Assembly: GCA_001794635.1 (NCBI GenBank)
Contig: MGKE01000002.1
Coordinates: 13,921-77,920, forward strand
Source: Candidatus Yanofskybacteria bacterium RIFCSPLOWO2_01_FULL_39_28
Lineage (GTDB): Bacteria > Patescibacteriota > Minisyncoccia > 2-02-FULL-40-12 > GWA2-44-9
Reading direction: 5' to 3'
Length of the DNA: 64,000 bases
Both the position numbers and the translations under genes were made by a program. The notes under the pieces were generated by a model. It was given only the letters and a program-made list of their open reading frames with translations, did no database searches and was not told the DNA's origin. Positions 39,066 through 57,476 of the stretch are shown piece by piece. Position 1 is the first letter of the stretch. Every line of letters begins with the position of its first letter.

Positions 39066-39089
39066 AACACACCATTATTGAGGTGTGTT
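39066..39089. terminator. Bidirectional intrinsic terminator between convergent genes
   Basis: AACACACC-ATTATTGA-GGTGTGTT with A/T-rich flanks. Confidence 0.6.
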
Positions 39090-40046
39090 GAATATATCAT
39101 ATCGTTGACTTGTCTCGTTCCTGTGAGATAAATACCACTCTATTGTATCTTTTATCCCTTGTTCTAGGGTGATTTGCGGTTCAAAACCCAATGATCTGGC
39201 GCGGGAAATGTCTAATATTCTTTGGGGGTCACCGCCGAACTTGGATGTGCCCCACTCAATTCTGGGTTTATTAGGGACATTTTCAACAATCGTTTCAACC
39301 AATGACTTGATGGAGATTCCGATGCCGCTGCCTAAATTTACAGGTTGGCTTGGATTTTTTTCAGCTATTAAGAGCATGCCTCTGGCTATATCTTGGACAT
39401 GAATAAAATCCCTAATCGTTGAGCCGTCACCCCAGACGGTCATTGGATTTTCGGTAAGCGCTCGTTTTATTAGAGAAGGCACTACCATAGCATTTTCGGA
39501 ATCAAAATTATCGTAGGGGCCGTAAATATTAGCAGGTCTTATAATAGTCACATTCCAGTTGTGTTCTCTGCGAAGAGCATTGGCATACCATTCACCGAAG
39601 AGTTTTGTCCGACCGGCAAAATCTGCGGGCGGTGGAGGCGTGTGTTCCGTATCGTCTTCGTTTAGAACTGGAGCCGGATAGTATACCCCAACTGAACTAG
39701 TGTATAAAAATCCAGCTACTTTTGCCTCCCTTGCCGCATCAAACAAGTGCGTATTGAATAAAACCATTGGGCGCATAATAGAAGCCGGATAGTTTTTGAC
39801 AATTTCCGGAGAGCCTTTAGCGCAGAGAAGATTAAATACATAATCCATATCTTTACAGACTTTTAGGCAGTTATCATAATTAGTCAGGTCGGTTTGGTGA
39901 AAATCTGCTTTTGGATGTGAGCGAGACTCGTCATCCATTGAAGCGATTCTTAAATGTGCGCCCTTAGCATCAAGCAGTTTACATAATTGGATGCCAACCA
40001 TACCGGTTCCACCGGCTATTAAAACATTTTTGTCTTTAAAAAACAT
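39075..40046 (-). CDS. Fcl-family NAD(P)-dependent sugar epimerase/reductase
   Basis: VLIAGGTGMVG, then NIYGPYDNFDSENAMVVPSLI and TVWGDGSTIRDFIHVQD, which parallel GDP-fucose synthase motifs. Confidence 0.7.
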   Translation of the reverse strand: MFFKDKNVLIAGGTGMVGIQLCKLLDAKGAHLRIASMDDESRSHPKADFHQTDLTNYDNCLKVCKDMDYVFNLLCAKGSPEIVKNYPASIMRPMVLFNTHLFDAAREAKVAGFLYTSSVGVYYPAPVLNEDDTEHTPPPPADFAGRTKLFGEWYANALRREHNWNVTIIRPANIYGPYDNFDSENAMVVPSLIKRALTENPMTVWGDGSTIRDFIHVQDIARGMLLIAEKNPSQPVNLGSGIGISIKSLVETIVENVPNKPRIEWGTSKFGGDPQRILDISRARSLGFEPQITLEQGIKDTIEWYLSHRNETSQRYDIFNTPQ

Positions 40047-40111: not shown

Positions 40112-40136
40112 TTAAAACACCGCTTTTAGCGGTGTT
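40112..40136 (-). terminator. Intrinsic terminator after 40176..42329
   Basis: On the minus strand, AACACCGC-TAAA-GCGGTGTT is followed by TTAATTTT. Confidence 0.6.
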
Positions 40137-40175: not shown

Positions 40176-42329
40176 TTAGTGGTGTCCTGCCAGATCTGGT
40201 ATTGGATTTTTGTTTCCGTACAGGTAAGCGCCTCGGCGATTGCACCACCAGACCATCTTTTCATACCACTCTTCCCATGAGTCCCATCTGGCGTTGGTGT
40301 TAGCCGAATCAGTTTTCGTAGTTCTATCAATTGTGTAGCTGTATGTTCCTTGTTTAAGCTCCAACTTTTGTTCTATGAGAGCTGCCCTATAAATTTCCCA
40401 AACATTGTAAGATAAAGATAACTCTAAGTCACTTGTCTGGAACGGTAATTTAATCAAAGATCCGTTTAGACTCATAGCGTCCAAAAGTGGTCCATTTGAA
40501 TGATCAGAACCTGTTAAATTAACCATCATTTCTTGAGCTTCTTCATATAGTTGTCTAAACTTATCTTCTCTGCAGATTTTAATAAATGCATATTCATCCG
40601 GTGGCCACAGAATGTCAAGACACTCCTTTGAATGGTAGAATTCTTCTTGCGTGCCATTTTGGATACCTCTTGAAAATTCATGGAAGAAATCCAGGATTTC
40701 AGCAAAAACCGGAAACTTATCTGAATGTTGAGAGTTTTCCATAAACGTTTCAAATATTCTGCGATAAGGAATTCCATAAACTTCATGCAAGATCATAATC
40801 GGTATCTGGAGGAGTTTGTTGAAATATATCAGTCCTACCATATAGCAAAACGATCGGGTTTTAACCCATGCTTCTCTGGGCATGGTGTTAGTTGCTATGA
40901 CAAGTTCTTGGTATTCCTCAATGCCACTGATAGATGCATTTTTCTTGCCGTGGATATTGGTTATCGGTGTTCTAACCGTTTCCATTCCGTACTCTTCTTG
41001 ATATTCGGGATCGCCCATTTCTGCGTTAGGTAATATGGAAAGATTATTAAACTGAATTCTGTCGTGCTGTCCATCTTCTATGATCTCAGAAACTCCATTC
41101 AATACGCTTTCATATGTTTCCATTGGCATACCTAAGATGTAGTCCGTCATTGTATATACACCTTTAGCTCTTAGTTCCTTCTGAATTCCTTGGTAATCTT
41201 CCGTTTTCATATTTTCTCTTCGAACAGCCTTTAGGGTATCAAAATTTTTTGACTGGATTGACATTACTGTAGCTTTGTTAAGTCCGGCTTTTTCCAGAAT
41301 TTCAAGGGCTACAAATGAGTGGGGCTTGGGATTTTTTGCATTTTGAACAGATATTCCCTCCGGAAAACCAGTAGCCAGTTTAGCGTCAGCTAATGTTTGC
41401 GCAATTTGCACGTCCTGTTTGGGAAGACCAAAATTAGCATTGGCAATAAAAATATAAGGAACTCTTTTATTTGCGAACCACCAAGCTTCTTGCATAACCC
41501 GATCAATTGGGAAGAGGCTTACTTTGTCCTCTATGGCTCCGCCCCAATCGCAGTAAGTACATTGGTAGGGACATCCCCGGTCAGTTTCCCACATAGCAAT
41601 CCATTTTTGATCAGGATACGCCGTTAGGAGTGCATCAAATGTTCCGCTTAGATATGGAGAGGGGACACCCGATAAGTCATGCATTCGTTCAAGTTTAGGA
41701 TTGTGGCGGAAGATTCCCTCATTGTCTATATAACTTATTGAAGGCAGATTAGATTTATTGGCAAGCCCGTCAATGGCTACTTGTTCTAAAATATGGCGGA
41801 ACACTCTTTCACCTTCACCATGAACAGCGATGTCTATGTAAGGATGATTCCTGTGAAATTTTTCGGTCATGCCCATTCTTTTACGTTTTAATTCATCTGG
41901 CCTGGGATCAGTTTTTTTGATTCTCTGGAATTGTTTTTTACTATCTGGAACATGAGGACCGCCGACAATCACTAATCTGTCCGGGTACCGTCTTTTAAAT
42001 TCTCTGGCTATGGCCATAGAATTTTCAAAGTTCCAGACGTATAAACTGATGGCTAGTAAATCGGCATCACTTAGCTTTTCAAGCGCTTCCTCAATTGGCA
42101 TAAAAGTATACAACGACAAAAGAAACCTGAAATAATCAGGATAGGATAAGTATGTCTGGGCATAAATCTGATTCATGCCCACTGAAAGAGGAAAATAGCA
42201 TTGTTCAGAAAAGCTATTATTTAACTGTATTAGTCCAATATTTATTTTCTTTGCCGGTGGTTTTACGGCGATTGGCAAAGGCGGACTTTCATTCGGCTGG
42301 ATAACTTTGAGCATTTTCGGCTCTGACAT
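40176..42329 (-). CDS. Cobalamin-binding-domain (class B) radical SAM enzyme with a long C-terminal extension
   Basis: WETDRGCPYQCTYCDWG after a B12-type domain (LLAISLYVWNF...LVIVGGPHVP). The C-terminal extension is about 250 aa. Confidence 0.8.
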   Translation of the reverse strand: MSEPKMLKVIQPNESPPLPIAVKPPAKKINIGLIQLNNSFSEQCYFPLSVGMNQIYAQTYLSYPDYFRFLLSLYTFMPIEEALEKLSDADLLAISLYVWNFENSMAIAREFKRRYPDRLVIVGGPHVPDSKKQFQRIKKTDPRPDELKRKRMGMTEKFHRNHPYIDIAVHGEGERVFRHILEQVAIDGLANKSNLPSISYIDNEGIFRHNPKLERMHDLSGVPSPYLSGTFDALLTAYPDQKWIAMWETDRGCPYQCTYCDWGGAIEDKVSLFPIDRVMQEAWWFANKRVPYIFIANANFGLPKQDVQIAQTLADAKLATGFPEGISVQNAKNPKPHSFVALEILEKAGLNKATVMSIQSKNFDTLKAVRRENMKTEDYQGIQKELRAKGVYTMTDYILGMPMETYESVLNGVSEIIEDGQHDRIQFNNLSILPNAEMGDPEYQEEYGMETVRTPITNIHGKKNASISGIEEYQELVIATNTMPREAWVKTRSFCYMVGLIYFNKLLQIPIMILHEVYGIPYRRIFETFMENSQHSDKFPVFAEILDFFHEFSRGIQNGTQEEFYHSKECLDILWPPDEYAFIKICREDKFRQLYEEAQEMMVNLTGSDHSNGPLLDAMSLNGSLIKLPFQTSDLELSLSYNVWEIYRAALIEQKLELKQGTYSYTIDRTTKTDSANTNARWDSWEEWYEKMVWWCNRRGAYLYGNKNPIPDLAGHH

Positions 42330-42360
42330 ATAACCTCATTTTTAACGAGCTTTGCTGATT

Positions 42361-42389
42361 TTTATAACATAATATTTATAGCATGTAAA
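42361..42389 (-). promoter_or_regulatory. Sigma70-like promoter for 40176..42329
   Basis: On the minus strand, TTTACA-N17-TATAAA, followed by the AATCAGCAAAGCTCGTTAAAAATGAGG leader. Confidence 0.45.
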
Positions 42390-42422
42390 CAAAACCCCTA
42401 AGAGGAATTAACCTCTTAGGGG
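42386..42422 (-). terminator. Intrinsic terminator at the stop codon of the PhyH gene 42408..43121
   Basis: On the minus strand, CCCCTAAGAGG-TTAATT-CCTCTTAGGGG is followed by TTTTGTTT. Confidence 0.8.
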
Positions 42423-43121
42423 CTGGGGTTTTCTGTTGGCGCTTTGCGCTTTTGAAGTATACGTTTGTCCGTGAACAATGCATAAAATTCCCATGTTAAG
42501 CCTAGATCGGGTAGGGGAATTGTTAGCGTGTGAACCATGGATTAAGTTGCCATGCTGGATATACAAGTCACCCTGATTCATTAACAGATCTACTTTTCTA
42601 TTAATAAATTCTGTTGGAATTTCGCATTTGTTGCCGAGATTTTCGTTTGGGGCATAGGTTGAATGTGGCTCATGTTCTAATATCGGAAGTTTGTGGGAAC
42701 CCGGGTAAGCATATAGACACCCGTTTTCCCGATCAGCATCTTCTAGGGCAACTATTGCCGAAACACCCATTCCGTAGGGGTATCGAGTGTAATGATTGTC
42801 TTGATGTGGATTCCAACCTTTGGTGAACGGAGAACCTGGTATTCTGAAATGAATTTGGCAGCCGAGCCAATCAATGGGCATATTATTGTGCAAGGTCTCA
42901 ACTACATCAGCGATTCTGCCATCAGTTATGAAATTCTTAATCTCTGGCGATTCGTGATCGGGACTCATCCTGACTTTATATGTCAGATCCGCCGTTTTCA
43001 AAGCCAGCTCTATAAGTTTTTTACATTCATCTGGCCCAAATAGTTTTTTAACAATTAAATAGCCATTGTCGTTGTAAGAATTAATATCTTGGCTAGTTAA
43101 AATTATTTTTTTTGGGAACAT
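42408..43121 (-). CDS. PhyH-family Fe(II)/2-oxoglutarate dioxygenase
   Basis: GYLIVKKLF start, the HxD motif in WNPHQDNHY and a distal His in GNLIHGSHAN. TAATG overlap with the upstream rSAM gene. Confidence 0.85.
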   Translation of the reverse strand: MFPKKIILTSQDINSYNDNGYLIVKKLFGPDECKKLIELALKTADLTYKVRMSPDHESPEIKNFITDGRIADVVETLHNNMPIDWLGCQIHFRIPGSPFTKGWNPHQDNHYTRYPYGMGVSAIVALEDADRENGCLYAYPGSHKLPILEHEPHSTYAPNENLGNKCEIPTEFINRKVDLLMNQGDLYIQHGNLIHGSHANNSPTRSRLNMGILCIVHGQTYTSKAQSANRKPQPLRG

Positions 43122-44989
43122 TAGATTCCCCCTATCATTTGCTGCAGGTCTTCAACAATTGTATCAAGTCCCATGACTGGAAATCTTTTTCTCCAGTAGT
43201 CATTTCCTTGCCAATGTTCTACGGCCAGATTTAATCTGTAATTTGCTTGTTCTCTGTTGCCGCGCTTATATTCCAAGAGAGCGAAATATAAGTTTCCCAA
43301 AGCATTCTCTTTATGTGTTTTATCGCACATATTAATAAATAACTTGTGCAGCATTTCTATTTTAATTGGATTTTCAAGATGCCACATTTTTTCATAATTT
43401 ATTCTGTAATCCATGGCAAACCAAATATCTATCAACTCTTTTCTTGTGGGTATTTTATCTTGATCGCCGACAAGGTGGTCAACAAACGGCAGGGCTTGTT
43501 CTTTTTCGTGTCTGGATCTCAGGGCTTGTTTACCGGTTGAATTGACGATTGGCCTTTCCGTGCCGTTAATTAAGTCTTGTTTTGAAATTTCACCGCGAAC
43601 TACGGCATGGTTTGTTATTTCTACGCCAGGAATGAGATTGAGTGGGGAAACTGTATACCAGTCAAAATCCATCTGCTTAGCCAGATTGATGGTGTCCCAT
43701 ATCATTCTTATTGATTCACCGGGGAAGTTTCTTTCCGGTTCTGGTGGAAAACCAACCATTAATAATCCTTTAGCAAAGATTTTAGGGTGTTTTTTCATTA
43801 TCTCGCCGGCTCTAAGGTAATGATGTACACCGCTTGGTTTGGGAATGTTCTTTAAAACCACAGGATTGCCCGATTCAATTCCAAAACTTAAAGCGCTGCA
43901 TCCTGATTTTTCAGCCGCATCGGCTATTTCCTCGGTCAAAGCAGAAGCAATAACTCCGTTTGAAGCATCCCAATTGAAACCCAAGTTTAACCTTGCCATT
44001 TCATTGAAGATTTCAATGATCGGACCGTTTAATAGATCATCATCCAGGGCCATGAAATAAGTAATACCCCGATCTCTTAATTGTTTTAATTCCTCTATGA
44101 CCCTATCCTTATCTCTTCTTAAAACGACTCCCGGGCCGTTAAATTTTTCCACCGAACAGAATCGGCATCTGGCTCGGCACCCCCTGTTAAAAAGCACCGT
44201 CCCTGCTCGTGTGTCTGGCTTGAATAGCCAATAAAATGTTCCGATTCTTCCCAGTTTACTGTATCTCTCAATTGGCAGGTCGTGATAATTAGGCGCAATA
44301 CTTAAAGTTTCAAACTTCGGTTCAGCCCGTTGAGTGACGGCAACATATTTACCGTCGTAAATAGTTGCTATTTGGGTAAGATTCTCTGGACTCATTTGGC
44401 CATTGGCGACATCCAAAAAATCACCGAAGCTATCGTTACCTTCATATAATCCAACAAAATCTATGTCCTGACTGTCCTCCAAAACTAGTTGTCCGGGAGA
44501 AGACTTAATATCCGTTGAAGCCATTGTAGAATGCACTCCGCCGGCTATAACAAGGATGTTTGGGTTAAGTTCTTTAATAAATTTTGCAATACGAACCATT
44601 GAACGATGATAGATTGTGAACATGCAAGTAACTCCAATGACCTCAGGATTAAACTCAATCACTTTATCTCTTAACCATTCTTCCCACAGATTAAATTTGA
44701 AATTTTGAGGTTCAGATTTAAAGTTATCCTGAATCATAAAATTAAGATCAATTAGATCGGTAACATAACCTCTCAATTCTAAGCAAGCTGATATGACTCC
44801 TAACCCATAGGGCTGGTAAACAGGATATCTGTTATCAGAAGCCACTTCGGCGTCCCAATCTTCTTCTGGAACGTTTGGCGGTTCTATGAGCAGAATTCTC
44901 TTGCAACCGTTTGGTAGTTTTTGCTTCAACTTCTCAGTTATTAGAATCTGTGATTCTGTTGATCGTTTTAGCATTAAATCTATGGACAT
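43121..44989 (-). CDS. Cobalamin-binding-domain (class B) radical SAM enzyme with a helical-repeat-like C-terminal tail
   Basis: LFNRGCRARCRFC after a B12-type domain (PEVIGVTCMFT...ILVIAGGVHSTMA). GGGGGG Shine-Dalgarno upstream. Confidence 0.85.
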   Translation of the reverse strand: MSIDLMLKRSTESQILITEKLKQKLPNGCKRILLIEPPNVPEEDWDAEVASDNRYPVYQPYGLGVISACLELRGYVTDLIDLNFMIQDNFKSEPQNFKFNLWEEWLRDKVIEFNPEVIGVTCMFTIYHRSMVRIAKFIKELNPNILVIAGGVHSTMASTDIKSSPGQLVLEDSQDIDFVGLYEGNDSFGDFLDVANGQMSPENLTQIATIYDGKYVAVTQRAEPKFETLSIAPNYHDLPIERYSKLGRIGTFYWLFKPDTRAGTVLFNRGCRARCRFCSVEKFNGPGVVLRRDKDRVIEELKQLRDRGITYFMALDDDLLNGPIIEIFNEMARLNLGFNWDASNGVIASALTEEIADAAEKSGCSALSFGIESGNPVVLKNIPKPSGVHHYLRAGEIMKKHPKIFAKGLLMVGFPPEPERNFPGESIRMIWDTINLAKQMDFDWYTVSPLNLIPGVEITNHAVVRGEISKQDLINGTERPIVNSTGKQALRSRHEKEQALPFVDHLVGDQDKIPTRKELIDIWFAMDYRINYEKMWHLENPIKIEMLHKLFINMCDKTHKENALGNLYFALLEYKRGNREQANYRLNLAVEHWQGNDYWRKRFPVMGLDTIVEDLQQMIGGI

Positions 44990-45028
44990 TAATTACCCCC
45001 CTGTTTTTAATGAACTAAGATTGAAATT

Positions 45029-45057
45029 ATAATATAATATTACGTAAAAATGTCCAA
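45029..45057 (-). promoter_or_regulatory. Sigma70-like promoter for 43121..44989
   Basis: On the minus strand, TTGGAC-N17-TATTAT, followed by the AGTTCATTAAAAACAGGGGGG leader. Confidence 0.45.
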
Positions 45058-45062
45058 TTATA

Positions 45063-45089
45063 ATAAAAAGGCCCCATTGTGTTGGGGCA
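45063..45089 (-). terminator. Intrinsic terminator after the PhyH gene 45098..45838
   Basis: On the minus strand, GCCCCA-ACACAA-TGGGGC is followed by CTTTTTATT. Confidence 0.7.
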
Positions 45090-45097
45090 GGATTGAT

Positions 45098-45838
45098 CTA
45101 AAGCTCATATCGCAAAGGTCTTACCGAAATTTCTTTTCTTTCAGCGGTTTTTCCTGGCAAGAAGTTCGGCTGTTGGCTTATTCCTTTTGCGCCGTAAGGC
45201 ATAAGGACCATTGGACGGTCGCGATCTGAACTTTTATTGGGGTACGAACCATGAGCGACATTTCCGTGAAGGATTAATAACGATCCCTTTTTCATGGGTA
45301 TATCAACCCGCTCATAATTAAGCGGCAAGTTTTTGGATAGATCATGTCCGGGGTTTTGACCCGTTGTCTGTTCGTGCCAGCTTTTAAATAATTCAGCGGG
45401 CAGGAGCGGTTCTAAATGAGAGCCTGGATATATAAACATACAACCATTTTCTTTATCTTGGTCTGCGAGAGGAATGTTCGCGGTTACATACATGCCGTGA
45501 GGCGCCCGAGCATAAGCGTTATCCTGATGAGGATTCCATGCTTGTGATGATCCGGCTTTCTTGAAAAGAAAAATACATTGGAGGCCGATGGTTTCAGCGT
45601 CTAGAAGGGCGTCCAAAATCATGATAATCTTGTAGTAACACATAAGGTGCCTGATTCGGTAGTCTTCTCTGTCCAGGTTCATTATCCCTTTATACTCGGG
45701 ATCTATTTTTGGTGCATATTCGTTAAATATTGCATATATTCTATCGCACTGTTCATTGTTTAATATCTCAGGAATTATTAAGTAGCCGTTTTTTCTGTAG
45801 GAAACAATCTGGTCTCTGGTAAGAAGAAAGTTTTCCAT
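45098..45838 (-). CDS. PhyH-family Fe(II)/2-oxoglutarate dioxygenase (paralogue)
   Basis: GYLIIPEIL, WNPHQDNAY (HxD) and GNVAHGSYPN. Confidence 0.85.
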   Translation of the reverse strand: MENFLLTRDQIVSYRKNGYLIIPEILNNEQCDRIYAIFNEYAPKIDPEYKGIMNLDREDYRIRHLMCYYKIIMILDALLDAETIGLQCIFLFKKAGSSQAWNPHQDNAYARAPHGMYVTANIPLADQDKENGCMFIYPGSHLEPLLPAELFKSWHEQTTGQNPGHDLSKNLPLNYERVDIPMKKGSLLILHGNVAHGSYPNKSSDRDRPMVLMPYGAKGISQQPNFLPGKTAERKEISVRPLRYEL

Positions 45839-45885: not shown

Positions 45886-46695
45886 TCAAATTTGCAAGTC
45901 TTTCAATTCTTTAAGCACTTCTTCAGCAATCTCAAGTGTGCTTTTATTAAAGCCAGTTGATACACTTCTAATTTTATCGGTGTTCATTCGGTGAACGTTA
46001 TGAATAAAACTGCCGAATTTTGGCTGACTGCCTAATGCTTCGGCGATTTCTCTCAGAGTGGCATTTTGTGTGGAACCGGCGTTAAATATTCCGGTGATGT
46101 TTTGGGTCAAAGCTAGTTCTATAAATTCTTTTATTTGAGACATACTAACAAGATTAAAACTAGATTCAGGGCTTAAGGTAAGGGGGCTTGGATCGTGGCA
46201 CAGGATTTTCATTATGTTAGTGGCTGGTCTTGTTGTAGGGCCGACTATTGAGACGCAACGTAGAATGAGTGGCGATTTGGAATTCTGGAGTACCACTTGT
46301 TCTGCTAATAACTTGAATAGTCCATAAAGATAATAGGTATGATGAACTGGGCAAGAGGTCTCTGGAAAATTTGGTACATCCGTTTCTTTACTTTCGCGAT
46401 ATGGGTCTGGATAAACTGCTGGCGATGAAATGTAAACGAATAAGCCGTGGGGGATTTGAGTTAATTGTTTCGTTAGCTCAATATTTGACTGGTAGTAAGG
46501 CCATAAGTCATTCGGCGGTATAACATTGCGGGTATCGGCGGCGCAGTGAACTATGGCATCGTAATAGTTTTGGCCATGACGATTTATTTCGTTTTTCAAG
46601 TTAGCCCGGTAAAAAGGCTTGCCTCGTAATCCACCCAGTAAATATTGGCCCAAACCGGATGATGTTCCGGTTACAAGGAACTTTGGTTTTGTCAT
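45886..46695 (-). CDS. NAD(P)-binding Rossmann protein (atypical extended SDR), paralogue A
   Basis: FLVTGTSSGLGQYL glycine-rich motif. About 60% identical to 47805..48596. Confidence 0.6.
   Translation of the reverse strand: MTKPKFLVTGTSSGLGQYLLGGLRGKPFYRANLKNEINRHGQNYYDAIVHCAADTRNVIPPNDLWPYYQSNIELTKQLTQIPHGLFVYISSPAVYPDPYRESKETDVPNFPETSCPVHHTYYLYGLFKLLAEQVVLQNSKSPLILRCVSIVGPTTRPATNIMKILCHDPSPLTLSPESSFNLVSMSQIKEFIELALTQNITGIFNAGSTQNATLREIAEALGSQPKFGSFIHNVHRMNTDKIRSVSTGFNKSTLEIAEEVLKELKDLQI
46082..46169. repeat. 88-bp tract identical to 48001..48088
   Basis: Base-by-base comparison found no differences across 88 bp, while the flanking paralogous sequence is clearly diverged. Confidence 0.85.
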
Positions 46696-46769
46696 CTGAA
46701 CCCTTTTTAAAGGAGCTTTGGTGTTTTTATAACATGGTTTTTTGGTTTAGGCAAATAAAAACCAGCATC

Positions 46770-47726
46770 TTATTGCGGGTTGTAATTTTGGCGATACCAG
46801 TCAATGGTTTTTAAGATTCCTTCGGTCAAACCAATGCGAGCTTTCCAATCAAGAAGTTTACGTGCTTTTTCAACATCTATGCTAATACGCGAGCCTATAG
46901 TCGGTTTTTCAAGATCGTATACGACTTTAATGTTTTTACCGAAGCAGGCGATTATGGTTTGTACCAATTCATTGACTGAATAGGTTCTTCCAAGACCAAC
47001 ATTAAATATCTCAAAGTTATTTTTTTGGAAATCAATAGCTTTTTTAATAAATTCAACCTGGTCATCAATATATAGTAAATCTCTAGTTTCGGTACCCGAT
47101 CCCCAAACAGTGATGTCGTGCTCTGCTTGCATTACTTTTACGATTGTAGCGGCAAGAACATGGCCGCGAGTTAAATCAAATTTATCATGCGGACCATAAA
47201 TATTCGTATGCCGTACGACGGTGTATTTGGTTGAACCTAAGCAGGCATAATAACAGCACTGTTCCTCTCCTGAAATCTTCATTTCCGCCGATCTGGCATA
47301 TGTCGGATGGATTCTTTTTATATCAATGCCGTCTTCGGTTAAAGGAGTGTCGCTTGAGGGATACATTATCGTACAACTCAGAAAAACAAAATGCCTTGCC
47401 TTATTGAGGTGGGCTGCCTCAATCAAATTAGAATTGATTAAGCCGTTTGCTTCAGCATTAGCTCTGGCGCTTTCTTCTTTGGAGAATACTCCTATACCGG
47501 AGATCTGGCCCGCAGCATTAATAATTATGTCCATGTCTTTTGTTGTTCGTAATGCTGTTTCCTCATTTTTTAAATCGGCTTGCACTATTCTGGAATTGGA
47601 AATCTGGGGTTTATTTTTCAAATAAGTTCCGTAAACCTCGTAATTGTTGAATGAACTAAAGTATTCAAATAAGTTGCGGCCAATAAATCCGCTTGCTCCG
47701 CAGATCATTATTCTGGTTTTTTTCAT
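46770..47726 (-). CDS. Fcl-family NAD(P)-dependent sugar epimerase/reductase
   Basis: IMICGASGFIGRNL, NIYGPHDKFDLTRGHVLAATI and TVWGSGTETRDLLYIDD. Confidence 0.7.
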   Translation of the reverse strand: MKKTRIMICGASGFIGRNLFEYFSSFNNYEVYGTYLKNKPQISNSRIVQADLKNEETALRTTKDMDIIINAAGQISGIGVFSKEESARANAEANGLINSNLIEAAHLNKARHFVFLSCTIMYPSSDTPLTEDGIDIKRIHPTYARSAEMKISGEEQCCYYACLGSTKYTVVRHTNIYGPHDKFDLTRGHVLAATIVKVMQAEHDITVWGSGTETRDLLYIDDQVEFIKKAIDFQKNNFEIFNVGLGRTYSVNELVQTIIACFGKNIKVVYDLEKPTIGSRISIDVEKARKLLDWKARIGLTEGILKTIDWYRQNYNPQ

Positions 47727-47763: not shown

Positions 47764-47792
47764 ATGATAAACTAAAAAAAATCTTAAGTCAA
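47764..47792 (-). promoter_or_regulatory. Sigma70-like promoter for 46770..47726
   Basis: On the minus strand, TTGACT-N17-TATCAT. The leader contains AAGTTCATTTACA. Confidence 0.5.
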
Positions 47793-47818
47793 CAAAAAAG
47801 AGGCTTATACCTCTTTTG
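47793..47818 (-). terminator. Intrinsic terminator at the stop codon of 47805..48596
   Basis: On the minus strand, AAAAGAGG-TATAAG-CCTCTTTT is followed by TT. Confidence 0.6.
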
Positions 47819-48596
47819 TTGATAATCTTTCAGCTTCAATTTTTGCTATTTCAAGAGTGCTTTTGTTGAAATCTATAGAAATTTCTCTGATCTTTCTGGT
47901 ATCCATCTGGGGTACATTAAAGGTGAAATTACCGAATTTTGGTTGGCTACCCACGGCTTTGGCTATTTCTCCAAGTGTCGCGTTTTGGGTGGAACCGGCA
48001 TTAAATATTCCGGTGATGTTTTGGGTCAAAGCTAGTTCTATAAATTCTTTTATTTGAGACATACTAACAAGATTAAAACTAGATTCAGTGCTTAAGGTGA
48101 GTTGGGTTGGGTCATTTCGGAGTATTCTGGCAATGTTTGTCGGCCTGCTTGTCGGCCCGACAATTGTTACGCAGCGAAGAATCAGGGATGAGCGTGTGTT
48201 CTGGCTGACCATTTTTTCGGTTAGAAGTTTGAATAGTCCATAAAGTCCGTAGAGGGGCGGGTCGTGGGGCAGGGTAATAATATCGGATTCGGAATTTAAT
48301 CGGTACAGGTCAGGATATACAGCGGACGAAGAGATGAATACGAATAAGTGGTGAGGAATTTGGAGCAATTGTTTCGTAAGTTCTATGTGCGACTGATAAT
48401 ATGTCAATAATTCATCTGACGTGATACTGTTTCTGGCATCAGTTGCGCAATGGATAATACAATCATAGAAAGTATTTTTGTGGCGGACTATTTCCAGGGG
48501 ATCTATTCTTTGGAAAGGTACGGCTCCAAGCTCTTTGACCAAATAGCGGCCAAGGCCGGATGAAGTTCCAGAAATAAGAATTTTAGCCTTGTTCAT
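47805..48596 (-). CDS. NAD(P)-binding Rossmann protein (atypical extended SDR), paralogue B
   Basis: ILISGTSSGLGRYL. Shares the 88-bp identical tract with 45886..46695. Confidence 0.6.
   Translation of the reverse strand: MNKAKILISGTSSGLGRYLVKELGAVPFQRIDPLEIVRHKNTFYDCIIHCATDARNSITSDELLTYYQSHIELTKQLLQIPHHLFVFISSSAVYPDLYRLNSESDIITLPHDPPLYGLYGLFKLLTEKMVSQNTRSSLILRCVTIVGPTSRPTNIARILRNDPTQLTLSTESSFNLVSMSQIKEFIELALTQNITGIFNAGSTQNATLGEIAKAVGSQPKFGNFTFNVPQMDTRKIREISIDFNKSTLEIAKIEAERLSTKEV
48001..48088. repeat. 88-bp tract identical to 46082..46169
   Basis: See the partner feature at 46082..46169. The tract encodes SSFNLVSMSQIKEFIELALTQNITGIFNAG. Confidence 0.85.
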
Positions 48597-48597
48597 C

Positions 48598-49404
48598 TTA
48601 CAACCCTCTTGTTATTCCTCCGTCAATATCATAAATGTGTCCGGTTTGAAAATTTGCTTTATCAGATGCAAGATAGACAACGAGGTCGGCCACGTTTTCT
48701 AGCGTACCCATTCTGCACAGGGGCGACTTTTGGAATTCTTCATAACGCATTAAATGCTCAGCTGCTTCGTAGGTAATTTCTGATCTTTGAGCTCTATCAG
48801 CTACATTTTGTCTCCATATTCCTCCATCCAAAGTGCTTGGGCAGATTGCATTTACCAGAATATTGGCATTGCCCAATTTTGTGGCAAGTTGTTTGGTTAA
48901 GATGTTCAGCGCTGCTTTAAATGAGACATAGTGAGGATTGAAATTGCCGGGTTGATGGGAGGACAAGCTGGAAATATTTATAATCCTTCCTTGTTTTGAA
49001 GCCGTTAAGTATGGTAATGACGCTCTGATAAATCGGACGGCGCTCATAAAAGTTAGATTGTAACAACTTAGCCAGTCTTCGTCGGATAGATCGGTGAAAT
49101 CGCCAAATTTTTCTAAGTGGCCGGCGTTATTGACCAGGATATCCAGTTTGCCTATTGCGGCAACGGGACCAAGTTCAAAAAAACTGTTTATTTTATCGTT
49201 ATCTGTAACATCAACCGGACAGGCCCATGTTTGCACACGGTATTTGTCTGATATTTCCTTCATGGTTTTTATTACAGCTTTTTCGTGACGGCCGTTAATT
49301 ATGACTTCAACACCTTCTTGGGCCAGAGCCAGTGCGATAGCTTTGCCTAGTCCATGGGTTGAACCAGTGACAAGAGCTAGTCGTCCTCTAAGGTTTAAAT
49401 CCAT
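48598..49404 (-). CDS. Classical short-chain dehydrogenase/reductase (FabG-like)
   Basis: LVTGSTHGLGKAIA, NNAG and YVSFKAAL (YxxxK). Confidence 0.85.
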   Translation of the reverse strand: MDLNLRGRLALVTGSTHGLGKAIALALAQEGVEVIINGRHEKAVIKTMKEISDKYRVQTWACPVDVTDNDKINSFFELGPVAAIGKLDILVNNAGHLEKFGDFTDLSDEDWLSCYNLTFMSAVRFIRASLPYLTASKQGRIINISSLSSHQPGNFNPHYVSFKAALNILTKQLATKLGNANILVNAICPSTLDGGIWRQNVADRAQRSEITYEAAEHLMRYEEFQKSPLCRMGTLENVADLVVYLASDKANFQTGHIYDIDGGITRGL

Positions 49405-49435
49405 ACGGACTCCTTGTAAATGAACTTTGCTGATT

Positions 49436-49464
49436 ACGATAAAATAAATTATTTATCAAGTCAA
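49436..49464 (-). promoter_or_regulatory. Sigma70-like promoter for 48598..49404
   Basis: On the minus strand, TTGACT-N17-TATCGT, followed by AATCAGCAAAGTTCATTTACAAGGAG. Confidence 0.5.
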
Positions 49465-49465
49465 G

Positions 49466-49500
49466 GCAAAATAATAACCTCACAATTATTGTGAGGTTAT
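49466..49500 (-). terminator. Intrinsic terminator at the stop codon of 49497..50456
   Basis: Perfect 13-bp stem, ATAACCTCACAAT / ATTGTGAGGTTAT, followed by ATTATTTTG on the minus strand. Confidence 0.7.
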
Positions 49501-50456
49501 GTCCTGACTGTTTTTCGGCAATGTTCCAGAAGATATTCAACGCTTTCTTCAATAGTATAACGCGGTTGCCAGCCGGTTTGGGCGGTGAATTTTGATGTGT
49601 CCGGTATTTGTAAAGTTACGTCAGCTGGTCTTAATAATTCCTTGTTCAAGCGCGATGGAATTGGACAGGAAGCTTTTTGTTTCAAGATTTCAAGAAATTC
49701 CCCCACAGTCATAGTCGTTGAACCGCCGATATTATATACTTCTCCAGGTATGCATTTTTCTATGGCCACCCAATAAGCTTCCATAGCGTCACGGCTGTCT
49801 ATAAGAGTTCTGACAGAATCAAGGTTTCCATGCACAAGCTCTTTTTGAAGTCCGGCTTCAATGCGAGCTACTTGGAGAGCGAATGCGGTAGCAAAGAGAT
49901 CGCTTCGCCGCGGGTTAATATAAGTGAACATCCTTGTTGTTATGATGGGAATGCCAAAACTTCGGTAATATACATAACCCAAATGATCTTGAAAAGTTTT
50001 AGAGACAGCGTATGGGCTGGATGGCTTTATCGGACAATCTTCTTTGATCGGTACATTCTTCGGATCAACTTGGCCATATACTTCCGATGTGCTGCAAAGC
50101 TGTATTCTTGGTGTTATTCCGGCAGTTCTTACCGCTTCCAAAAAGTTTGCTGTACCCATGACATTGTTTTCTATCACAGCTAATGGAATATCAAAGGATT
50201 CTCTAACATTGGCATGAGAAGCAAGGTGGAAAATGTAATCAGGATTTATCGCGTTTAAGACTTTGAGTATTGAGCTAAAGTCCTTCAAATCACATGCATG
50301 AACATGAACTTCGTTTTTTGTTTGAGAAAGATTTCTGGACGTGTGCCATCGGCCAGCGCCGTGAATTTCGCATTCGGGGTGATTCGCGACAATGAAATCT
50401 GTAAGATAACTGGCTCCAGAACCGTGGATGCCGGTTATTAATATTTTTTTACCCAT
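49497..50456 (-). CDS. gmd: GDP-mannose 4,6-dehydratase-like enzyme
   Basis: ILITGIHGSGASYL, STSEVYG, PYAVSK and NPRRSDLFATAFALQVARIEAGLQKELVHGNLDSVRTLIDSRD parallel Gmd motifs (HESPRRG..FVTRKI..A.I..G......GNLDA.RDW). The substrate could instead be a GDP-heptose. Confidence 0.65.
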   Translation of the reverse strand: MGKKILITGIHGSGASYLTDFIVANHPECEIHGAGRWHTSRNLSQTKNEVHVHACDLKDFSSILKVLNAINPDYIFHLASHANVRESFDIPLAVIENNVMGTANFLEAVRTAGITPRIQLCSTSEVYGQVDPKNVPIKEDCPIKPSSPYAVSKTFQDHLGYVYYRSFGIPIITTRMFTYINPRRSDLFATAFALQVARIEAGLQKELVHGNLDSVRTLIDSRDAMEAYWVAIEKCIPGEVYNIGGSTTMTVGEFLEILKQKASCPIPSRLNKELLRPADVTLQIPDTSKFTAQTGWQPRYTIEESVEYLLEHCRKTVRT

Positions 50457-51412: not shown

Positions 51413-51449
51413 AACTAATCCCCTTCTATTTACAAAGAACCTTGGTGAA

Positions 51450-51477
51450 ATTATATATAAAAAACGTGATAAGTCAA
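51450..51477 (-). promoter_or_regulatory. Near-consensus sigma70 promoter for 50456..51412
   Basis: On the minus strand, TTGACT-N16-TATAAT lies about 37 nt upstream of GGGGATTAGTT-ATG. Confidence 0.6.
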
Positions 51478-51490
51478 CCGAATAATCGCG

Positions 51491-51784: not shown

Positions 51785-51798
51785 GCTACTATCAATTA

Positions 51799-57462: not shown

Positions 57463-57476
57463 ATTATAACTATAAA

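What the first reader, a model, noticed from the sequence alone, without database searches (positions are those of the whole stretch)
40176..45838. Cobalamin-type radical SAM enzymes interleaved with PhyH dioxygenases inside a sugar-nucleotide locus
Three consecutive minus-strand units, each ending in its own terminator:
1. SDR-like 45886..46695, then PhyH 45098..45838.
2. B12-rSAM 43121..44989, translationally coupled by a TAATG overlap to PhyH 42408..43121.
3. A 717-aa B12-rSAM, 40176..42329, which has its own promoter.

Both PhyH proteins keep the HxD...H iron triad (PHQDN; HGSHAN / HGSYPN). Both rSAM proteins keep CX3CX2C (CRARCRFC, CPYQCTYC). All of them are embedded among Gmd/Fcl-type sugar-nucleotide enzymes.

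Class B rSAM enzymes are established C- or P-methyltransferases and ring-forming enzymes on unactivated carbons, and PhyH enzymes are hydroxylases. A coupled rSAM-PhyH pair acting on a nucleotide sugar or glycan has not, to my knowledge, been characterised. The substrate is unknown. A lipid or a small molecule cannot be excluded.
Basis: partly seen in the sequence, partly recalled or inferred. Interest (0 to 1): 0.7.

Follow-up and report, generated by a model that had tools for sequence, protein, structure and literature searches.

The report
Radical-SAM and dioxygenase sugar-tailoring genes
A groundwater ultra-small bacterium (Candidatus Yanofskybacteria) carries, inside a large surface-sugar gene island, two vitamin-B12-type radical enzymes interleaved with two iron/oxygen-dependent hydroxylases; the set recurs in sugar-building gene clusters of many uncultured bacteria and archaea and probably adds methyl and hydroxyl groups to an unusual sugar that nobody has yet described.

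Summary

The window comes from a Candidatus Yanofskybacteria (CPR) genome from groundwater.

The two rSAM proteins are not equivalent:
- rSAM-A (40176-42329) is a clear relative of the cobalamin-dependent methylases TokK and CysS (PDB E 1e-87 and 5e-48). It keeps the Trp that sits under the cobalt in TokK.
- rSAM-B (43121-44989) belongs to a small orphan clade with the class-B fold. No curated family claims it.

Both PhyH proteins keep an invariant His-Asp-His-Arg set and model as the DSBH fold of this dioxygenase family.

In 80 other genomes from more than 15 phyla, including DPANN archaea and SAR11, rSAM-B homologues sit in sugar-nucleotide contexts, never in RiPP or lipid contexts. A PhyH gene lies within 10 kb in 27 loci and is adjacent in 14. 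All four PhyH homologues I looked up lie in the same cassette.

The four genes are the tailoring end of a conserved ~22-kb cassette: GHMP kinase, ThDP E1 alpha/beta, DJ-1, cupin, aminotransferase and SDRs.

Most likely function: radical C-methylation followed by hydroxylation of a nucleotide-sugar intermediate, analogous to ThnK/ThnQ in carbapenems. The product is unknown. I rate it a new variant of a known kind, of moderate to high interest.

The parts
40176..42329 (-). rSAM-A: TokK/ThnK/CysS/KedN5-type class-B radical SAM enzyme, a probable cobalamin-dependent C-methylase that may be iterative
   Evidence: Pfam Radical_SAM 4e-10 and B12-binding 29.8 bits. NCBIfam best hit is the KedN5 family, 233 bits against a 700 cut-off. 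PDB phmmer: TokK 1.4e-87, CysS 4.9e-48. CPYQCTYC at residue 253. W99 aligns with TokK Trp76.
42408..43121 (-). PhyH-1: Fe(II)/2-oxoglutarate dioxygenase whose start overlaps the rSAM-B stop (TAATG)
   Evidence: PF05721 1.3e-25. H106-x-D108, H195, Arg +10/+12. 35% identical to PhyH-2. Overlap read.
43121..44989 (-). rSAM-B: orphan-clade class-B radical SAM enzyme
   Evidence: Pfam Radical_SAM 1e-15 and B12-binding 45.1 bits. Best NCBIfam hits are Sden_1168 at 118/575 and PhpK at 103/600. AF2 pLDDT 89.6. Foldseek: TsrM 1.8e-19, MgmA, AprD4, OxsB, CysS. C271/C275/C278 are invariant in 23 homologues.
45098..45838 (-). PhyH-2: Fe(II)/2-oxoglutarate dioxygenase, the conserved partner of rSAM-B
   Evidence: PF05721 6.6e-27. 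H104, D106, H196 and R208 are invariant in 26 sequences. AF2 pLDDT 92.2. Foldseek: SnoN 1.8e-18, proline hydroxylase H11, SnoK, GriE, PHYHD1, AviO1/HygX/EvdO2. Lies immediately upstream of rSAM-B in L007-L009 as in the window.
39075..40046 (-). Fcl-like extended SDR, the conserved downstream partner of rSAM-A
   Evidence: Pfam Epimerase 9e-49. NCBIfam GDP-L-fucose synthase 145/500. The rSAM-A-SDR pair recurs in L008, L009, L011, L021, L082, L088-L091 and L093.
45886..47726 (-). Compact SDR (45886-46695) and Fcl-like SDR (46770-47726), probably in the same transcription unit as PhyH-2
   Evidence: Pfam/NCBIfam. GTSSGLG and YGLFK motifs. Promoter-like site at 47792..47764, with no terminator before 45088.
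47805..53945 (-). Further sugar-nucleotide enzymes: compact SDR paralogue, FabG-like SDR, Gmd-like, Fcl-like, SDR, DegT aminotransferase
   Evidence: Homologues co-occur with rSAM-B across phyla.
54050..60960 (-). Upstream half of the conserved cassette: PDH-like E1 beta/alpha, HAD phosphatase, metal cupin, DJ-1/PfpI, divergent ThDP E1 beta/alpha, GHMP (HddA-like) kinase
   Evidence: Pfam/NCBIfam. ThDP motif GDA..NN, DJ-1 Cys-His and cupin HxH..E motifs read. The gene set recurs around rSAM-B and PhyH homologues.
40116..40136 (-). Terminator-like hairpin after rSAM-A
   Evidence: 9-bp stem plus T-run. -12.7 kcal/mol, z -4.8.
42393..42424 (-). Terminator-like hairpin overlapping the PhyH-1 stop codon
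   Evidence: 13-bp stem plus T-run. -23.5 kcal/mol, z -6.0.
45071..45088 (-). Terminator-like hairpin after PhyH-2
   Evidence: 6-bp stem with 5 GC pairs, plus T-run. -11.1 kcal/mol, z -2.3.

Best explanation
The four genes are the late tailoring steps of a conserved pathway of about 22 kb (39075-60960, minus strand). The pathway builds an unusual activated sugar for a surface glycan of a Candidatus Yanofskybacteria cell.

Early steps (inferred from families):
- A GHMP anomeric kinase and a HAD phosphatase activate the sugar.
- ThDP-dependent E1 alpha/beta pairs add or extend a two-carbon unit.
- A cupin, extended SDRs and a DegT aminotransferase carry out keto, epimer and amino chemistry on the nucleotide-linked intermediate.

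Tailoring steps:
- rSAM-A is a TokK/ThnK/CysS-type cobalamin-dependent radical SAM methylase. rSAM-B is an orphan class-B clade.
- Each uses a [4Fe-4S]-generated 5'-deoxyadenosyl radical to abstract hydrogen from an unactivated carbon of the sugar or its side chain.
- Each then transfers methyl from methylcobalamin. rSAM-A may do this more than once.
- The two PhyH-family Fe(II)/2-oxoglutarate dioxygenases then oxidise unactivated C-H bonds. The most likely reaction is hydroxylation of the newly installed alkyl group, as ThnQ does after ThnK in thienamycin biosynthesis.
- The Fcl-like SDR next to rSAM-A finishes the keto/epimer chemistry.

Shown here: domain identities, catalytic motifs, folds, gene order, and recurrent co-occurrence with sugar-nucleotide genes across phyla.

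Inferred: cobalamin use, methyl transfer, the order of methylation and hydroxylation, the nucleotide-sugar substrate, and the product.
For: Domains and motifs.

rSAM-A:
- It aligns with TokK from the Cbl domain through the rSAM core (E 1.4e-87) and with CysS (4.9e-48).
- It keeps W99, the equivalent of TokK Trp76, which sits under the cobalt. CysS and ThnK are predicted to share this residue (PMC13331322).

rSAM-B:
- The AF2 model has pLDDT 89.6, and its best structural matches are Cbl-rSAM methylases (TsrM, MgmA, CysS) plus OxsB and AprD4.

PhyH proteins:
- His/Asp/His plus Arg are invariant, and the fold is DSBH.
- The top structural neighbours include the sugar-acting SnoN, SnoK, AviO1, HygX and EvdO2.

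Context of 80 rSAM-B loci from other species:
- Among the 49 loci with 5 kb or more on both sides, within 10 kb there is an NDP-sugar SDR in 42, a divergent E1 alpha/beta pair in 26, DegT in 25 and another B12-rSAM in 23.
- PhyH lies within 10 kb in 27 of 80 and within 300 bp in 14 of 80. It occurs on either side and in overlapping arrangements, in unrelated lineages.

Other context evidence:
- Neighbours without a window homologue are rSAMs (8 HemN-like), methyltransferases, NUDIX, GFO/IDH/MocA and glycosyltransferases.
- Reciprocal test: 4 of 4 PhyH-2 homologues on long contigs sit in the same cassette.
- rSAM-A homologues at about 50% identity always sit next to an Epimerase-family SDR and near a ThDP E1/transketolase pair.
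- A distant relative fuses two B12-rSAM domains to two GT2 and two methyltransferase domains.
- The window itself holds glycosyltransferases, PseI, an ABC exporter ATPase and a weak MptE-like (Maf-type) match, which scores below the Pfam cut-off.

Precedent: ThnK ethylation followed by ThnQ hydroxylation (PMC6097109).
Against: - There is no biochemical or glycan-structure data for any organism carrying the cassette. All of them are uncultured, or their glycans are uncharacterised.
- Neither rSAM reaches any curated family cut-off.
- The substrates I could check for the TokK clade are not nucleotide sugars: TokK and ThnK alkylate carbapenams, and the CysS structures hold a pantetheinylated substrate. 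That all characterised members use pantetheine-linked substrates is my recollection.
- AprD4 and ArsL show that a Rossmann-like N-terminal domain does not guarantee cobalamin binding (PMC12931638). AprD4 is among the structural neighbours of rSAM-B.
- PhyH is missing from two thirds of rSAM-B loci, so the steps are separable. The assumed order, methylation then hydroxylation, is an analogy.
- PhyH needs O2 whereas rSAM clusters are O2-labile.
- CPR bacteria are generally fermentative and lack cobamide synthesis (general knowledge, not tested here).
Confidence: 0.5

Rival explanations
1. rSAM-B is not a methylase. It catalyses a radical rearrangement, dehydration, epimerisation or ring chemistry on the sugar, with or without cobalamin, as AprD4 (diol dehydratase on paromamine) or OxsB (ring contraction) do. 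PhyH then oxidises the product.
For: AprD4 (6fd2) and OxsB (5ul4) are among the top structural matches, and AprD4 is a sequence hit (3e-6). No methylase family model reaches its cut-off. The review PMC12931638 notes Rossmann-bearing rSAMs that do not bind Cbl. In delta-proteobacterial and Brocadia loci, rSAM-B is wedged with 0-bp gaps between the ThDP E1 beta gene and the cupin gene, which suggests a core carbon-skeleton step and not a decoration.
Against: The best structural hits are methylases (TsrM, MgmA). The Pfam B12-binding domain passes its gathering score. The AprD4 family model NF033070 gave no hit for rSAM-B at E<=1e-3, although it did hit two other rSAMs in the window. Most characterised class-B enzymes are methylases (PMC12931638).
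Confidence: 0.25
2. The rSAM and PhyH enzymes do not touch the sugar ring. They build or tailor a non-carbohydrate substituent, such as an acyl, hydroxyalkyl or amino-acid-like group derived from pyruvate through the E1 enzymes. That group later decorates pseudaminic acid or another sugar of the glycan.
For: The TokK-clade substrates I could check are carbapenams and a pantetheinylated aromatic acid, not nucleotide sugars. The window encodes PseI, a NeuB/CMP-transferase fusion, HisH/HisF-like amidotransferase genes and a GNAT; the statement that nonulosonic acids are often N-acylated with unusual groups is general knowledge. Three E1-type ThDP enzyme sets are present.
Against: I found no carrier protein, PPTase, CoA-ligase or acyltransferase in 39-61 kb. 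The largest gap, 51.4-51.8 kb, has no plausible ORF. The invariable partners across phyla are NDP-sugar-type SDRs, not Pse/Leg genes. rSAM-A is always followed by an Epimerase-family SDR.
Confidence: 0.15
3. The block tailors a phosphonate or phosphinate decoration. rSAM-B would be a PhpK/SD_1168-like P-methyltransferase, and PhyH a PhnY*-like (methyl)phosphonate hydroxylase.
For: The best NCBIfam hits of rSAM-B are the Sden_1168 and PhpK P-methyltransferase families. Both PhyH proteins weakly hit the methylphosphonate hydroxylase model.
Against: Scores are far below the cut-offs (118/575, 103/600, 28-32/500). No PEP mutase motif occurs in any frame of the window, and no PEP_mutase hit among the roughly 60 ORFs scanned. 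I saw no phosphonate genes in the related loci.
Confidence: 0.03
4. The enzymes act on a lipid (hopanoid- or ladderane-type) or a ribosomal peptide (RiPP), and their position among sugar genes is coincidental.
For: Weak HMM similarity to HpnJ, HpnR, the ladderane rSAM and RiPP methylases, as for any class-B rSAM.
Against: Eighty loci from more than 15 phyla show sugar-nucleotide neighbours. No RiPP recognition, peptidase, cyclase or lipid-synthesis families were found.
Confidence: 0.02

Closest known systems
TokK / ThnK with ThnQ (carbapenem C6 side-chain assembly)
   Same: rSAM-A is homologous to TokK over the Cbl and rSAM domains (E 1.4e-87) and keeps the Trp under the cobalt. In thienamycin biosynthesis a Cbl-rSAM (ThnK) builds an ethyl group by two methylations, and a 2OG oxygenase (ThnQ) hydroxylates it (PMC6097109). 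That is the same enzyme pairing as here.
   Different: The substrate there is a carbapenam in a secondary-metabolite cluster. Here the context is a sugar-nucleotide and glycan island. rSAM-A has an insertion of about 23 residues (134-157) and a divergent C-terminal domain of about 190 residues. It scores 233 bits against the 700-bit cut-off of the KedN5/TokK-type NCBIfam model.
CysS / KedN5 (iterative methylation of a methoxy group to branched alkoxy groups)
   Same: CysS is the second-best PDB relative of rSAM-A (4.9e-48). The KedN5 family is the best NCBIfam match. Both share the class-B architecture.
   Different: CysS was crystallised with a pantetheinylated aromatic acid as substrate (entries 9n1b/9n1c). 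No carrier-protein machinery is present here.
GenK, GenD1/GntE, Fms7, MoeK5 (class-B rSAM C-methylases acting on sugars of aminoglycosides and moenomycin)
   Same: These are class-B rSAM C-methylases, listed as characterised or assigned in PMC12931638. That they methylate unactivated sugar carbons is from my memory. This is the closest functional analogy for a class-B rSAM on a carbohydrate.
   Different: They sit in natural-product clusters of actinomycetes and act on pseudo-oligosaccharides. No NCBIfam model for them matched.
PhpK / SD_1168 P-methyltransferases
   Same: These are the best-scoring curated models for rSAM-B and for the third window rSAM at 20161-21741.
   Different: Scores are about a fifth of the cut-off. 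There is no phosphonate pathway in the window.
SnoN / SnoK, AviO1 / EvdO2 / HygX, KanJ (PhyH-like 2OG enzymes acting on sugars)
   Same: The PhyH-2 model is structurally closest to SnoN (1.8e-18). SnoK, AviO1, HygX and EvdO2 are also matched. KanJ and EvdO2 appear as weak sequence hits. They show that PhyH-fold enzymes epimerise, cyclise, deaminate or form orthoesters on sugars; those functions are from the PDB titles and general knowledge.
   Different: Sequence identity is 16-22%. Proline and leucine hydroxylases score equally well, so the fold does not indicate the substrate.
AprD4 (radical SAM diol dehydratase of apramycin biosynthesis)
   Same: It is a structural (9e-16) and weak sequence (3e-6) neighbour of rSAM-B. 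It acts on an aminosugar and has a Rossmann-like N-terminal domain.
   Different: AprD4 does not bind cobalamin (PMC12931638). rSAM-B passes the Pfam B12-binding cut-off and did not hit the AprD4 family model.
E1 alpha/beta-type ThDP enzymes of branched-sugar pathways (AviB1/AviB2 of avilamycin, the aldgarose pathway) and the GHMP kinase/HAD phosphatase logic of GDP-heptose and GDP-octose (lincosamide) synthesis
   Same: The same enzyme families flank the rSAM/PhyH block and travel with it across phyla.
   Different: The analogy rests on my memory of those pathways. It was not tested here by sequence comparison.

Membership tests
Class B (cobalamin-dependent) radical SAM enzymes | Radical SAM core with a CX3CX2C [4Fe-4S] motif | tested here: met
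   PF04055 4e-10 for rSAM-A and 1e-15 for rSAM-B. CPYQCTYC and CRARCRFC. The three Cys are invariant in 23 rSAM-B homologues.
Class B (cobalamin-dependent) radical SAM enzymes | N-terminal Rossmann-type cobalamin-binding domain | tested here: met
   rSAM-B: PF02310 at 45.1 bits, above the 32.1 cut-off. The AF2 model aligns over its full length with TsrM, OxsB and CysS. rSAM-A: PF02310 at 29.8 bits, just under the cut-off, but the Cbl domain aligns with that of TokK (4e-14) and W99 matches TokK Trp76.
Class B (cobalamin-dependent) radical SAM enzymes | Actual binding and use of cobalamin | not testable with these tools
   Class-B enzymes bind Cbl base-off and His-off, with no universal motif (PMC13331322). 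AprD4 and ArsL are counter-examples.
TokK/ThnK/CysS/KedN5 methylcobalamin-dependent C-methylases (NCBIfam NF033712) | Score at or above the curated cut-off of the family model | tested here: not met
   rSAM-A scores 233 bits against a cut-off of 700. rSAM-B scores 26 bits.
TokK/ThnK/CysS/KedN5 methylcobalamin-dependent C-methylases (NCBIfam NF033712) | Full-length homology to a solved member, and the hydrophobic Trp under the cobalt | tested here: met
   For rSAM-A only: TokK 1.4e-87 over residues 41-530, CysS 4.9e-48. W99 aligns with Trp76.
PhpK / Sden_1168 P-methyltransferases | Family model cut-off, and a phosphonate (PEP mutase) pathway in the neighbourhood | tested here: not met
   118/575 and 103/600 bits. 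No PEP mutase motif or Pfam hit anywhere in the window.
PhyH-family Fe(II)/2-oxoglutarate dioxygenases (PF05721) | Pfam gathering score | tested here: met
   91.4 and 95.6 bits against a cut-off of 22.
PhyH-family Fe(II)/2-oxoglutarate dioxygenases (PF05721) | HxD...H iron triad and a basic residue for the 2OG C5 carboxylate | tested here: met
   H104, D106, H196 and R208 are invariant in 26 sequences, including PhyH-1. The role of R208 is inferred from its position, +12 from the distal His, as in human PhyH (general knowledge).
PhyH-family Fe(II)/2-oxoglutarate dioxygenases (PF05721) | Double-stranded beta-helix fold | tested here: met
   AF2 pLDDT 92.2. Foldseek TM 0.7-0.8 to SnoN, H11, GriE, PHYHD1 and PhyH.
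GDP-mannose 4,6-dehydratase (Gmd) / GDP-L-fucose synthase (Fcl) equivalogs | NCBIfam equivalog cut-off | tested here: not met
   Gmd-like 49497-50456: 143/415. Fcl-like 50456-51514: 258/500. 46770-47726: 141/500. 39075-40046: 145/500. They are extended SDRs of that general type only.
AprD4-family radical SAM diol dehydratases (NF033070) | Family model match | tested here: not met
   No hit at E<=1e-3 for rSAM-A or rSAM-B. Only fold-level and weak sequence similarity.

The most novel reading that the evidence does not exclude
The cassette is a widespread, undescribed route to a new class of heavily C-alkylated and hydroxylated branched or chain-extended sugars. These would sit in the surface glycans of CPR bacteria, DPANN archaea, SAR11, Nitrospira, anammox bacteria and others. 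ThDP-dependent C2 addition would be followed by cobalamin-dependent radical methylation (iterative in the TokK-like enzyme) and 2OG-dependent hydroxylation. That would be the first role for class-B radical SAM enzymes in primary cell-surface glycan biosynthesis. It would also make the cell envelope of genome-reduced symbionts dependent on scavenged cobamide and on traces of O2.
Probability: 0.35. Interest if true: 0.75.

Novelty: new variant of a known kind. Interest (0 to 1): 0.58.

Why it matters
Class-B radical SAM enzymes are known from antibiotics, cofactors, lipids and peptides. I found no report of one in cell-surface polysaccharide or glycoprotein synthesis: six literature searches returned nothing, and a 2026 review of the class never uses the words sugar or polysaccharide.

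Here five such enzymes sit in one 64-kb glycan island of an organism whose genome is expected to be about 1 Mb (typical for CPR bacteria; general knowledge, not measured here). Two of them travel with sugar-nucleotide genes through more than 15 phyla.

If the chemistry is as proposed:
- It defines a new type of sugar modification on the surfaces of the least-known microbes (CPR, DPANN, SAR11, Nitrospira, anammox bacteria).
- It links their envelopes to community-supplied vitamin B12.
- It offers new C-H alkylating and hydroxylating biocatalysts for carbohydrates.

Tried and rejected
- Phosphonate tailoring. The PhpK/SD_1168 and PhnY* HMM hits suggested it. I rejected it because the scores are far below the cut-offs and no PEP mutase motif or domain exists in the window.
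- RiPP or lipid context. Rejected by the neighbour analysis of 80 loci and the Pfam census.
- 'Truncated SDR' reading of 45886-46695 and 47805-48596. Rejected: both have a GTSSGLG nucleotide-binding motif and a YxxxK, so they are compact SDRs.
- Carrier protein in the 51.4-51.8 kb gap. None found.
- Riboswitch or other RNA elements, including cobalamin riboswitches. No Rfam hit at gathering score; no tRNA.
- PDB sequence searches for the cupin (56713-57462) and the 650-aa ORF (60957-62909) gave nothing significant.
- Literature searches for rSAM + PhyH in glycans, CPR/Patescibacteria + rSAM + polysaccharide, anammox S-layer glycan + rSAM, and B12-binding rSAM + O-antigen + heptose found no relevant paper.
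NCBIfam model scores served as a proxy.

Full report
**1. Observation**

- Pfam assigns Radical_SAM plus B12-binding to the 717-aa and 622-aa proteins, and PhyH (PF05721) to the 237-aa and 246-aa proteins.
- The cluster motifs are CPYQCTYC (rSAM-A, residue 253) and CRARCRFC (rSAM-B, residue 271). The PhyH signatures are HQD at 106/104 and HGS at 195/196.
- The stop of rSAM-B overlaps the start of PhyH-1 in TAATG at 43121.
- Hairpin-plus-T-run terminators follow PhyH-2 (45088..45071), PhyH-1 (42424..42393) and rSAM-A (40136..40116). They fold far better than shuffles, with z of -2.3, -6.0 and -4.8.
- A promoter-like site precedes rSAM-B. TTTACA-N17-TATAAA can be read before rSAM-A. Promoter-like hits as a class are not enriched over shuffles, so I treat promoters as plausible only.
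- Unit 1 probably begins at the Fcl-like gene 46770..47726.

**2. Source and setting**

- The identical rSAM-B protein is found on 23 public contigs, among them GCA_001794285.1.
- The identical rSAM-A is annotated 'hypothetical protein [Candidatus Yanofskybacteria bacterium RIFCSPHIGHO2_02_FULL...]'. The window therefore comes from a CPR/Patescibacteria genome from groundwater.
- The whole 64-kb window is a glycan island. It holds GT2 and GT4 glycosyltransferases, pseudaminic acid synthase PseI (463 bits, above the cut-off), a NeuB/CMP-transferase fusion, HisH/HisF-like genes, two DegT aminotransferases, a carbamoyltransferase, a weak MptE-like (Maf-type) match below the Pfam cut-off, an ABC exporter ATPase, about a dozen NDP-sugar-type SDRs and three sets of ThDP E1 enzymes.
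- It holds five B12-domain rSAMs and one SPASM rSAM.
- The 'Gmd/Fcl' genes are extended SDRs of that type but score well below the equivalog cut-offs. GDP specificity is therefore not shown.

**3. The two rSAM enzymes differ**

*rSAM-A*
- It matches TokK (7kdx) at 1.4e-87 and CysS (9n1b) at 4.9e-48. Its best NCBIfam model is the KedN5 family of methylcobalamin-dependent C-methylases, at 233 bits against a cut-off of 700.
- In the gap-free alignment of the Cbl domains, TokK Trp76 aligns with W99 of rSAM-A. Trp76 fills the space under the cobalt, and CysS and ThnK are predicted to share it (PMC13331322).
- rSAM-A therefore works like a TokK-type radical methylase, although it is not a member of the curated family.

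*rSAM-B*
- It has only weak sequence relatives in the PDB: MgmA 9ccb at 4e-10 and AprD4 at 3e-6.
- Its best NCBIfam scores, for the SD_1168 and PhpK P-methylases, are about one fifth of the cut-offs.
- An AlphaFold model built on 23 homologues is confident (pLDDT 89.6). It superposes over its full length on TsrM, MgmA, AprD4, OxsB and CysS. The architecture is the class-B one: Rossmann domain, TIM barrel and C-terminal helical domain.
- An exhaustive HMMER scan of 1.84 billion cluster representatives finds only 142 with E<=1e-30, against 17,014 with E<=1e-3. rSAM-B is thus a small distinct clade inside a very large superfamily.

**4. The PhyH proteins**

- They are 35% identical paralogues.
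- In an alignment of 26 family members, H104, D106, H196 and R208 are invariant.
- The model (pLDDT 92.2) is a double-stranded beta-helix. Its closest solved neighbours are SnoN, a proline hydroxylase, SnoK, GriE, PHYHD1, and AviO1, HygX and EvdO2.
- Several of these act on sugars. Amino-acid hydroxylases score as well, so the fold does not reveal the substrate.

**5. Comparative context**

*rSAM-B loci*
- A scan of one genome per GTDB species found 131 relatives of rSAM-B, and 80 loci were retrieved.
- Hosts include Yanofskybacteria, Saccharibacteria, Daviesbacteria, Elusimicrobia, Terriglobia, Nitrospira, Ca. Brocadia, Deltaproteobacteria, Planctomycetes, Omnitrophota, Rhodospirillales, Pelagibacteraceae, and Woese-, Pace- and Nanoarchaeota.
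- I called ORFs in all loci and compared them with the annotated window proteins. Among the 49 loci with at least 5 kb on both sides, the counts within 10 kb are:

| Neighbour of the rSAM-B homologue | Loci (of 49) |
|---|---|
| NDP-sugar SDR | 42 |
| Divergent E1 alpha/beta pair | 26 |
| DegT | 25 |
| Another B12-rSAM | 23 |
| GHMP kinase | 21 |
| DJ-1 | 20 |
| Cupin | 15 |

*PhyH linkage*
- A PhyH gene lies within 10 kb in 27 of 80 loci and within 300 bp in 14 of 80.
- It lies upstream, downstream, overlapping, or divergent in one case, in unrelated lineages: Elusimicrobia L024, Pelagibacteraceae L050 and L086, Alphaproteobacteria L053, and CPR L007-L009 and L026.
- On a neighbour-joining tree, the PhyH-linked loci fall in several subclades of the nearer half of the family. 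The Nitrospira, Saccharibacteria, Brocadia/delta and distant alphaproteobacterial subclades lack PhyH.

*Other neighbours*
- The 74 immediate neighbours with no window homologue were scanned against Pfam. They gave Radical_SAM (12, of which 8 with HemN_C), SAM methyltransferases, NUDIX, GFO/IDH/MocA, transketolase and GT1. Nothing typical of RiPP or lipid pathways appeared.
- A HemN-like rSAM directly adjoins rSAM-B in seven loci that match HemN_C, plus one (L048) of the same size that matches Radical_SAM only. In the sister Yanofskybacteria L008 and L009 it occupies the very slot that PhyH-1 occupies in the window.

*Reciprocal test*
- Four PhyH-2 homologues (43-47% identity) on long contigs all lie in the cassette GHMP - DJ-1 - (cupin) - E1 alpha - E1 beta - B12-rSAM - SDR - PhyH - FabG - (NUDIX) - SDR - SDR - DegT.
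- Two of the four have no rSAM-B gene within the 8-kb flanks retrieved; their single B12-rSAM is a 654-aa protein, which I take to be A-type from its length and position, since the equivalent gene in L082 matched rSAM-A at 43% identity.

*rSAM-A loci*
- rSAM-A homologues at about 50% identity are always followed by an Epimerase-family SDR and lie near a ThDP E1/transketolase pair, without PhyH.

*Fusion protein*
- A distant relative fuses two B12-rSAM domains to two GT2 and two methyltransferase domains.

*Conclusion for this section*
- The four genes belong to a conserved cassette of about 22 kb (39075-60960).
- Its invariant core is sugar-nucleotide chemistry plus ThDP E1 enzymes plus class-B rSAMs. 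PhyH is a frequent accessory.

**6. Mechanism proposed**

*Shown*
- Catalytic motifs, folds, gene order and co-occurrence.

*Inferred from family knowledge*
- A sugar is activated by the GHMP kinase, the HAD phosphatase and a nucleotidyltransferase. CTP_transf_like genes are present in the window and in L087.
- It is oxidised to keto intermediates by the SDRs.
- It is branched or extended by a C2 unit through the ThDP E1 alpha/beta enzymes. The ThDP motif is retained.
- It is aminated by DegT.
- It is then C-methylated by rSAM-A and rSAM-B through 5'-dA radical H-abstraction and methyl transfer from methylcobalamin.
- Finally it is hydroxylated by the PhyH enzymes.

The closest precedent for the last two steps is ThnK, which makes an ethyl group by two methylations, followed by the 2OG oxygenase ThnQ, which hydroxylates it (PMC6097109). 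My confidence in this overall reading is about 0.5.

**7. Rivals**

- rSAM-B may be a non-methylating enzyme, AprD4- or OxsB-like (0.25). AprD4 is a structural neighbour and lacks cobalamin. The tight E1 beta - rSAM-B - cupin arrangement in delta-proteobacterial and Brocadia loci hints at a skeleton-forming step.
- The enzymes may tailor a non-sugar substituent destined for pseudaminic acid (0.15). The TokK-clade substrates I could check are not nucleotide sugars, but no carrier-protein genes are present.
- Phosphonate tailoring (0.03) fails for lack of a PEP mutase.
- Lipid or RiPP substrates (0.02) are contradicted by the context.

**8. Comparison and novelty**

- Both enzyme superfamilies are well known, and the methylase-then-oxygenase pairing has a carbapenem precedent.
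- Three things are not described, as far as my searches reach (the 2026 review PMC12931638 lists only natural-product sugar methylases such as GenK, GenD1, Fms7 and MoeK5). They are class-B rSAMs in a primary surface-glycan pathway, the orphan rSAM-B clade, and the conserved cassette that carries them through CPR, DPANN, SAR11, Nitrospira and anammox genomes.
- I therefore classify the finding as a new variant of a known kind.

**9. Caveats**

- All related loci are from metagenome-assembled or single-cell genomes.
- My ORF calling in the loci was heuristic.
- Co-occurrence counts depend on BLAST and HMM thresholds.
- The neighbour-joining tree is crude.
- Cobalamin binding, methyl transfer, the substrate and the product are all untested.
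- The co-existence of an O2-requiring dioxygenase and an O2-labile rSAM enzyme in one translationally coupled pair is unexplained. So is the need of a CPR organism for scavenged cobamide, which I infer from general knowledge and did not test.

Noticed in passing
window 4660-5883, 7001-8695, 12925-14865, 20161-21741 (plus 40176-44989): The 64-kb window encodes five B12-domain radical SAM enzymes and one SPASM radical SAM enzyme, all inside the glycan island. None reaches any NCBIfam family cut-off. The best partial hits are HpnJ, BchE, Sden_1168 and a tungsten-cofactor maturase. This is an extraordinary density for a CPR genome.
   Followed up: partly
window 45886-46695 and 47805-48596: Two compact SDR paralogues (269 and 263 aa; GTSSGLG and YGLFK motifs) are 66% identical, with a 36-residue stretch of complete identity. 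The DNA repeat is 77% identical with 1919-bp spacing. This looks like a tandem module duplication with partial gene conversion. Pfam matches only the middle of the Epimerase model, so they look 'truncated' but are not.
   Followed up: partly
L008 12032-13429, L009 11898-13283; also L011, L014, L046, L048, L050, L070: A HemN-like radical SAM protein (~460-480 aa) directly adjoins the rSAM-B homologue in these eight loci; seven match HemN_C, L048 only Radical_SAM. In the sister Yanofskybacteria genomes it occupies the slot that PhyH-1 holds in the window. This suggests swappable tailoring modules, one O2-dependent and one anaerobic.
   Followed up: partly
proteins P0442, P0450, P0477, P0451, P0486 (distant relatives of rSAM-B): Giant fusion proteins of 1300-2300 aa carry two to five radical SAM domains with B12 domains. 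One (P0486) has two B12-rSAM domains, two GT2 domains and two SAM-methyltransferase domains. Their origin and function are unknown.
   Followed up: partly
L047, L050, L065, L066, L086 (Pelagibacteraceae); L027, L030, L033, L040, L055 (DPANN and other archaea): rSAM-B homologues with B12-binding domains occur in SAR11 genomes, including Ca. Pelagibacter sp. HIMB1412, and in Woese-, Pace- and Nanoarchaeota. All of these lineages have very small genomes. The implied cobamide requirement for their surface glycans was not examined.
   Followed up: no
window 28506-29576, 32675-34531, 30163-31534, 27994-28440, 25479-26375: A pseudaminic-acid-type module: PseI (463 bits, above the cut-off), a NeuB-like/CMP-transferase fusion (618 aa), HisH/HisF-like amidotransferase and cyclase genes, a GNAT and an MptE-like (Maf-type) protein below the Pfam cut-off. 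This suggests nonulosonic-acid glycosylation of a surface protein in a CPR bacterium.
   Followed up: no
window 15321-16850 and 16940-18943: An HldE-like bifunctional protein with the domain order reversed (nucleotidyltransferase N-terminal, PfkB kinase C-terminal), followed by a single-chain fusion of PDH-type E1 alpha and beta (667 aa).
   Followed up: no
window 6039-6437 and 6437-6964: Two adjacent small pentapeptide-repeat proteins sit in the middle of the glycan island.
   Followed up: no
window 60957-62909, 1728-3533, 35661-39063: Large ORFs of 650, 601, 367, 376 and 367 aa have no Pfam, NCBIfam or PDB match. The three at 35.6-39 kb recur next to the cassette in related contigs (L001-L003, L013, L014). 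They are possibly membrane polymerase, ligase or flippase components.
   Followed up: no
window 50456-51514 and 51415-51820: The mechanical ORF starts at a GTG (352 aa), but public gene calls give 318 aa. That leaves an intergenic region of about 400 bp upstream, with no ORF, no Rfam match and several promoter-like sites. It may be the internal regulatory region of the cassette.
   Followed up: partly
window 42393-42424: The strongest terminator hairpin of the block (13-bp stem, -23.5 kcal/mol) overlaps the stop codon of PhyH-1. Translation of the last codons and hairpin formation would therefore compete.
   Followed up: no
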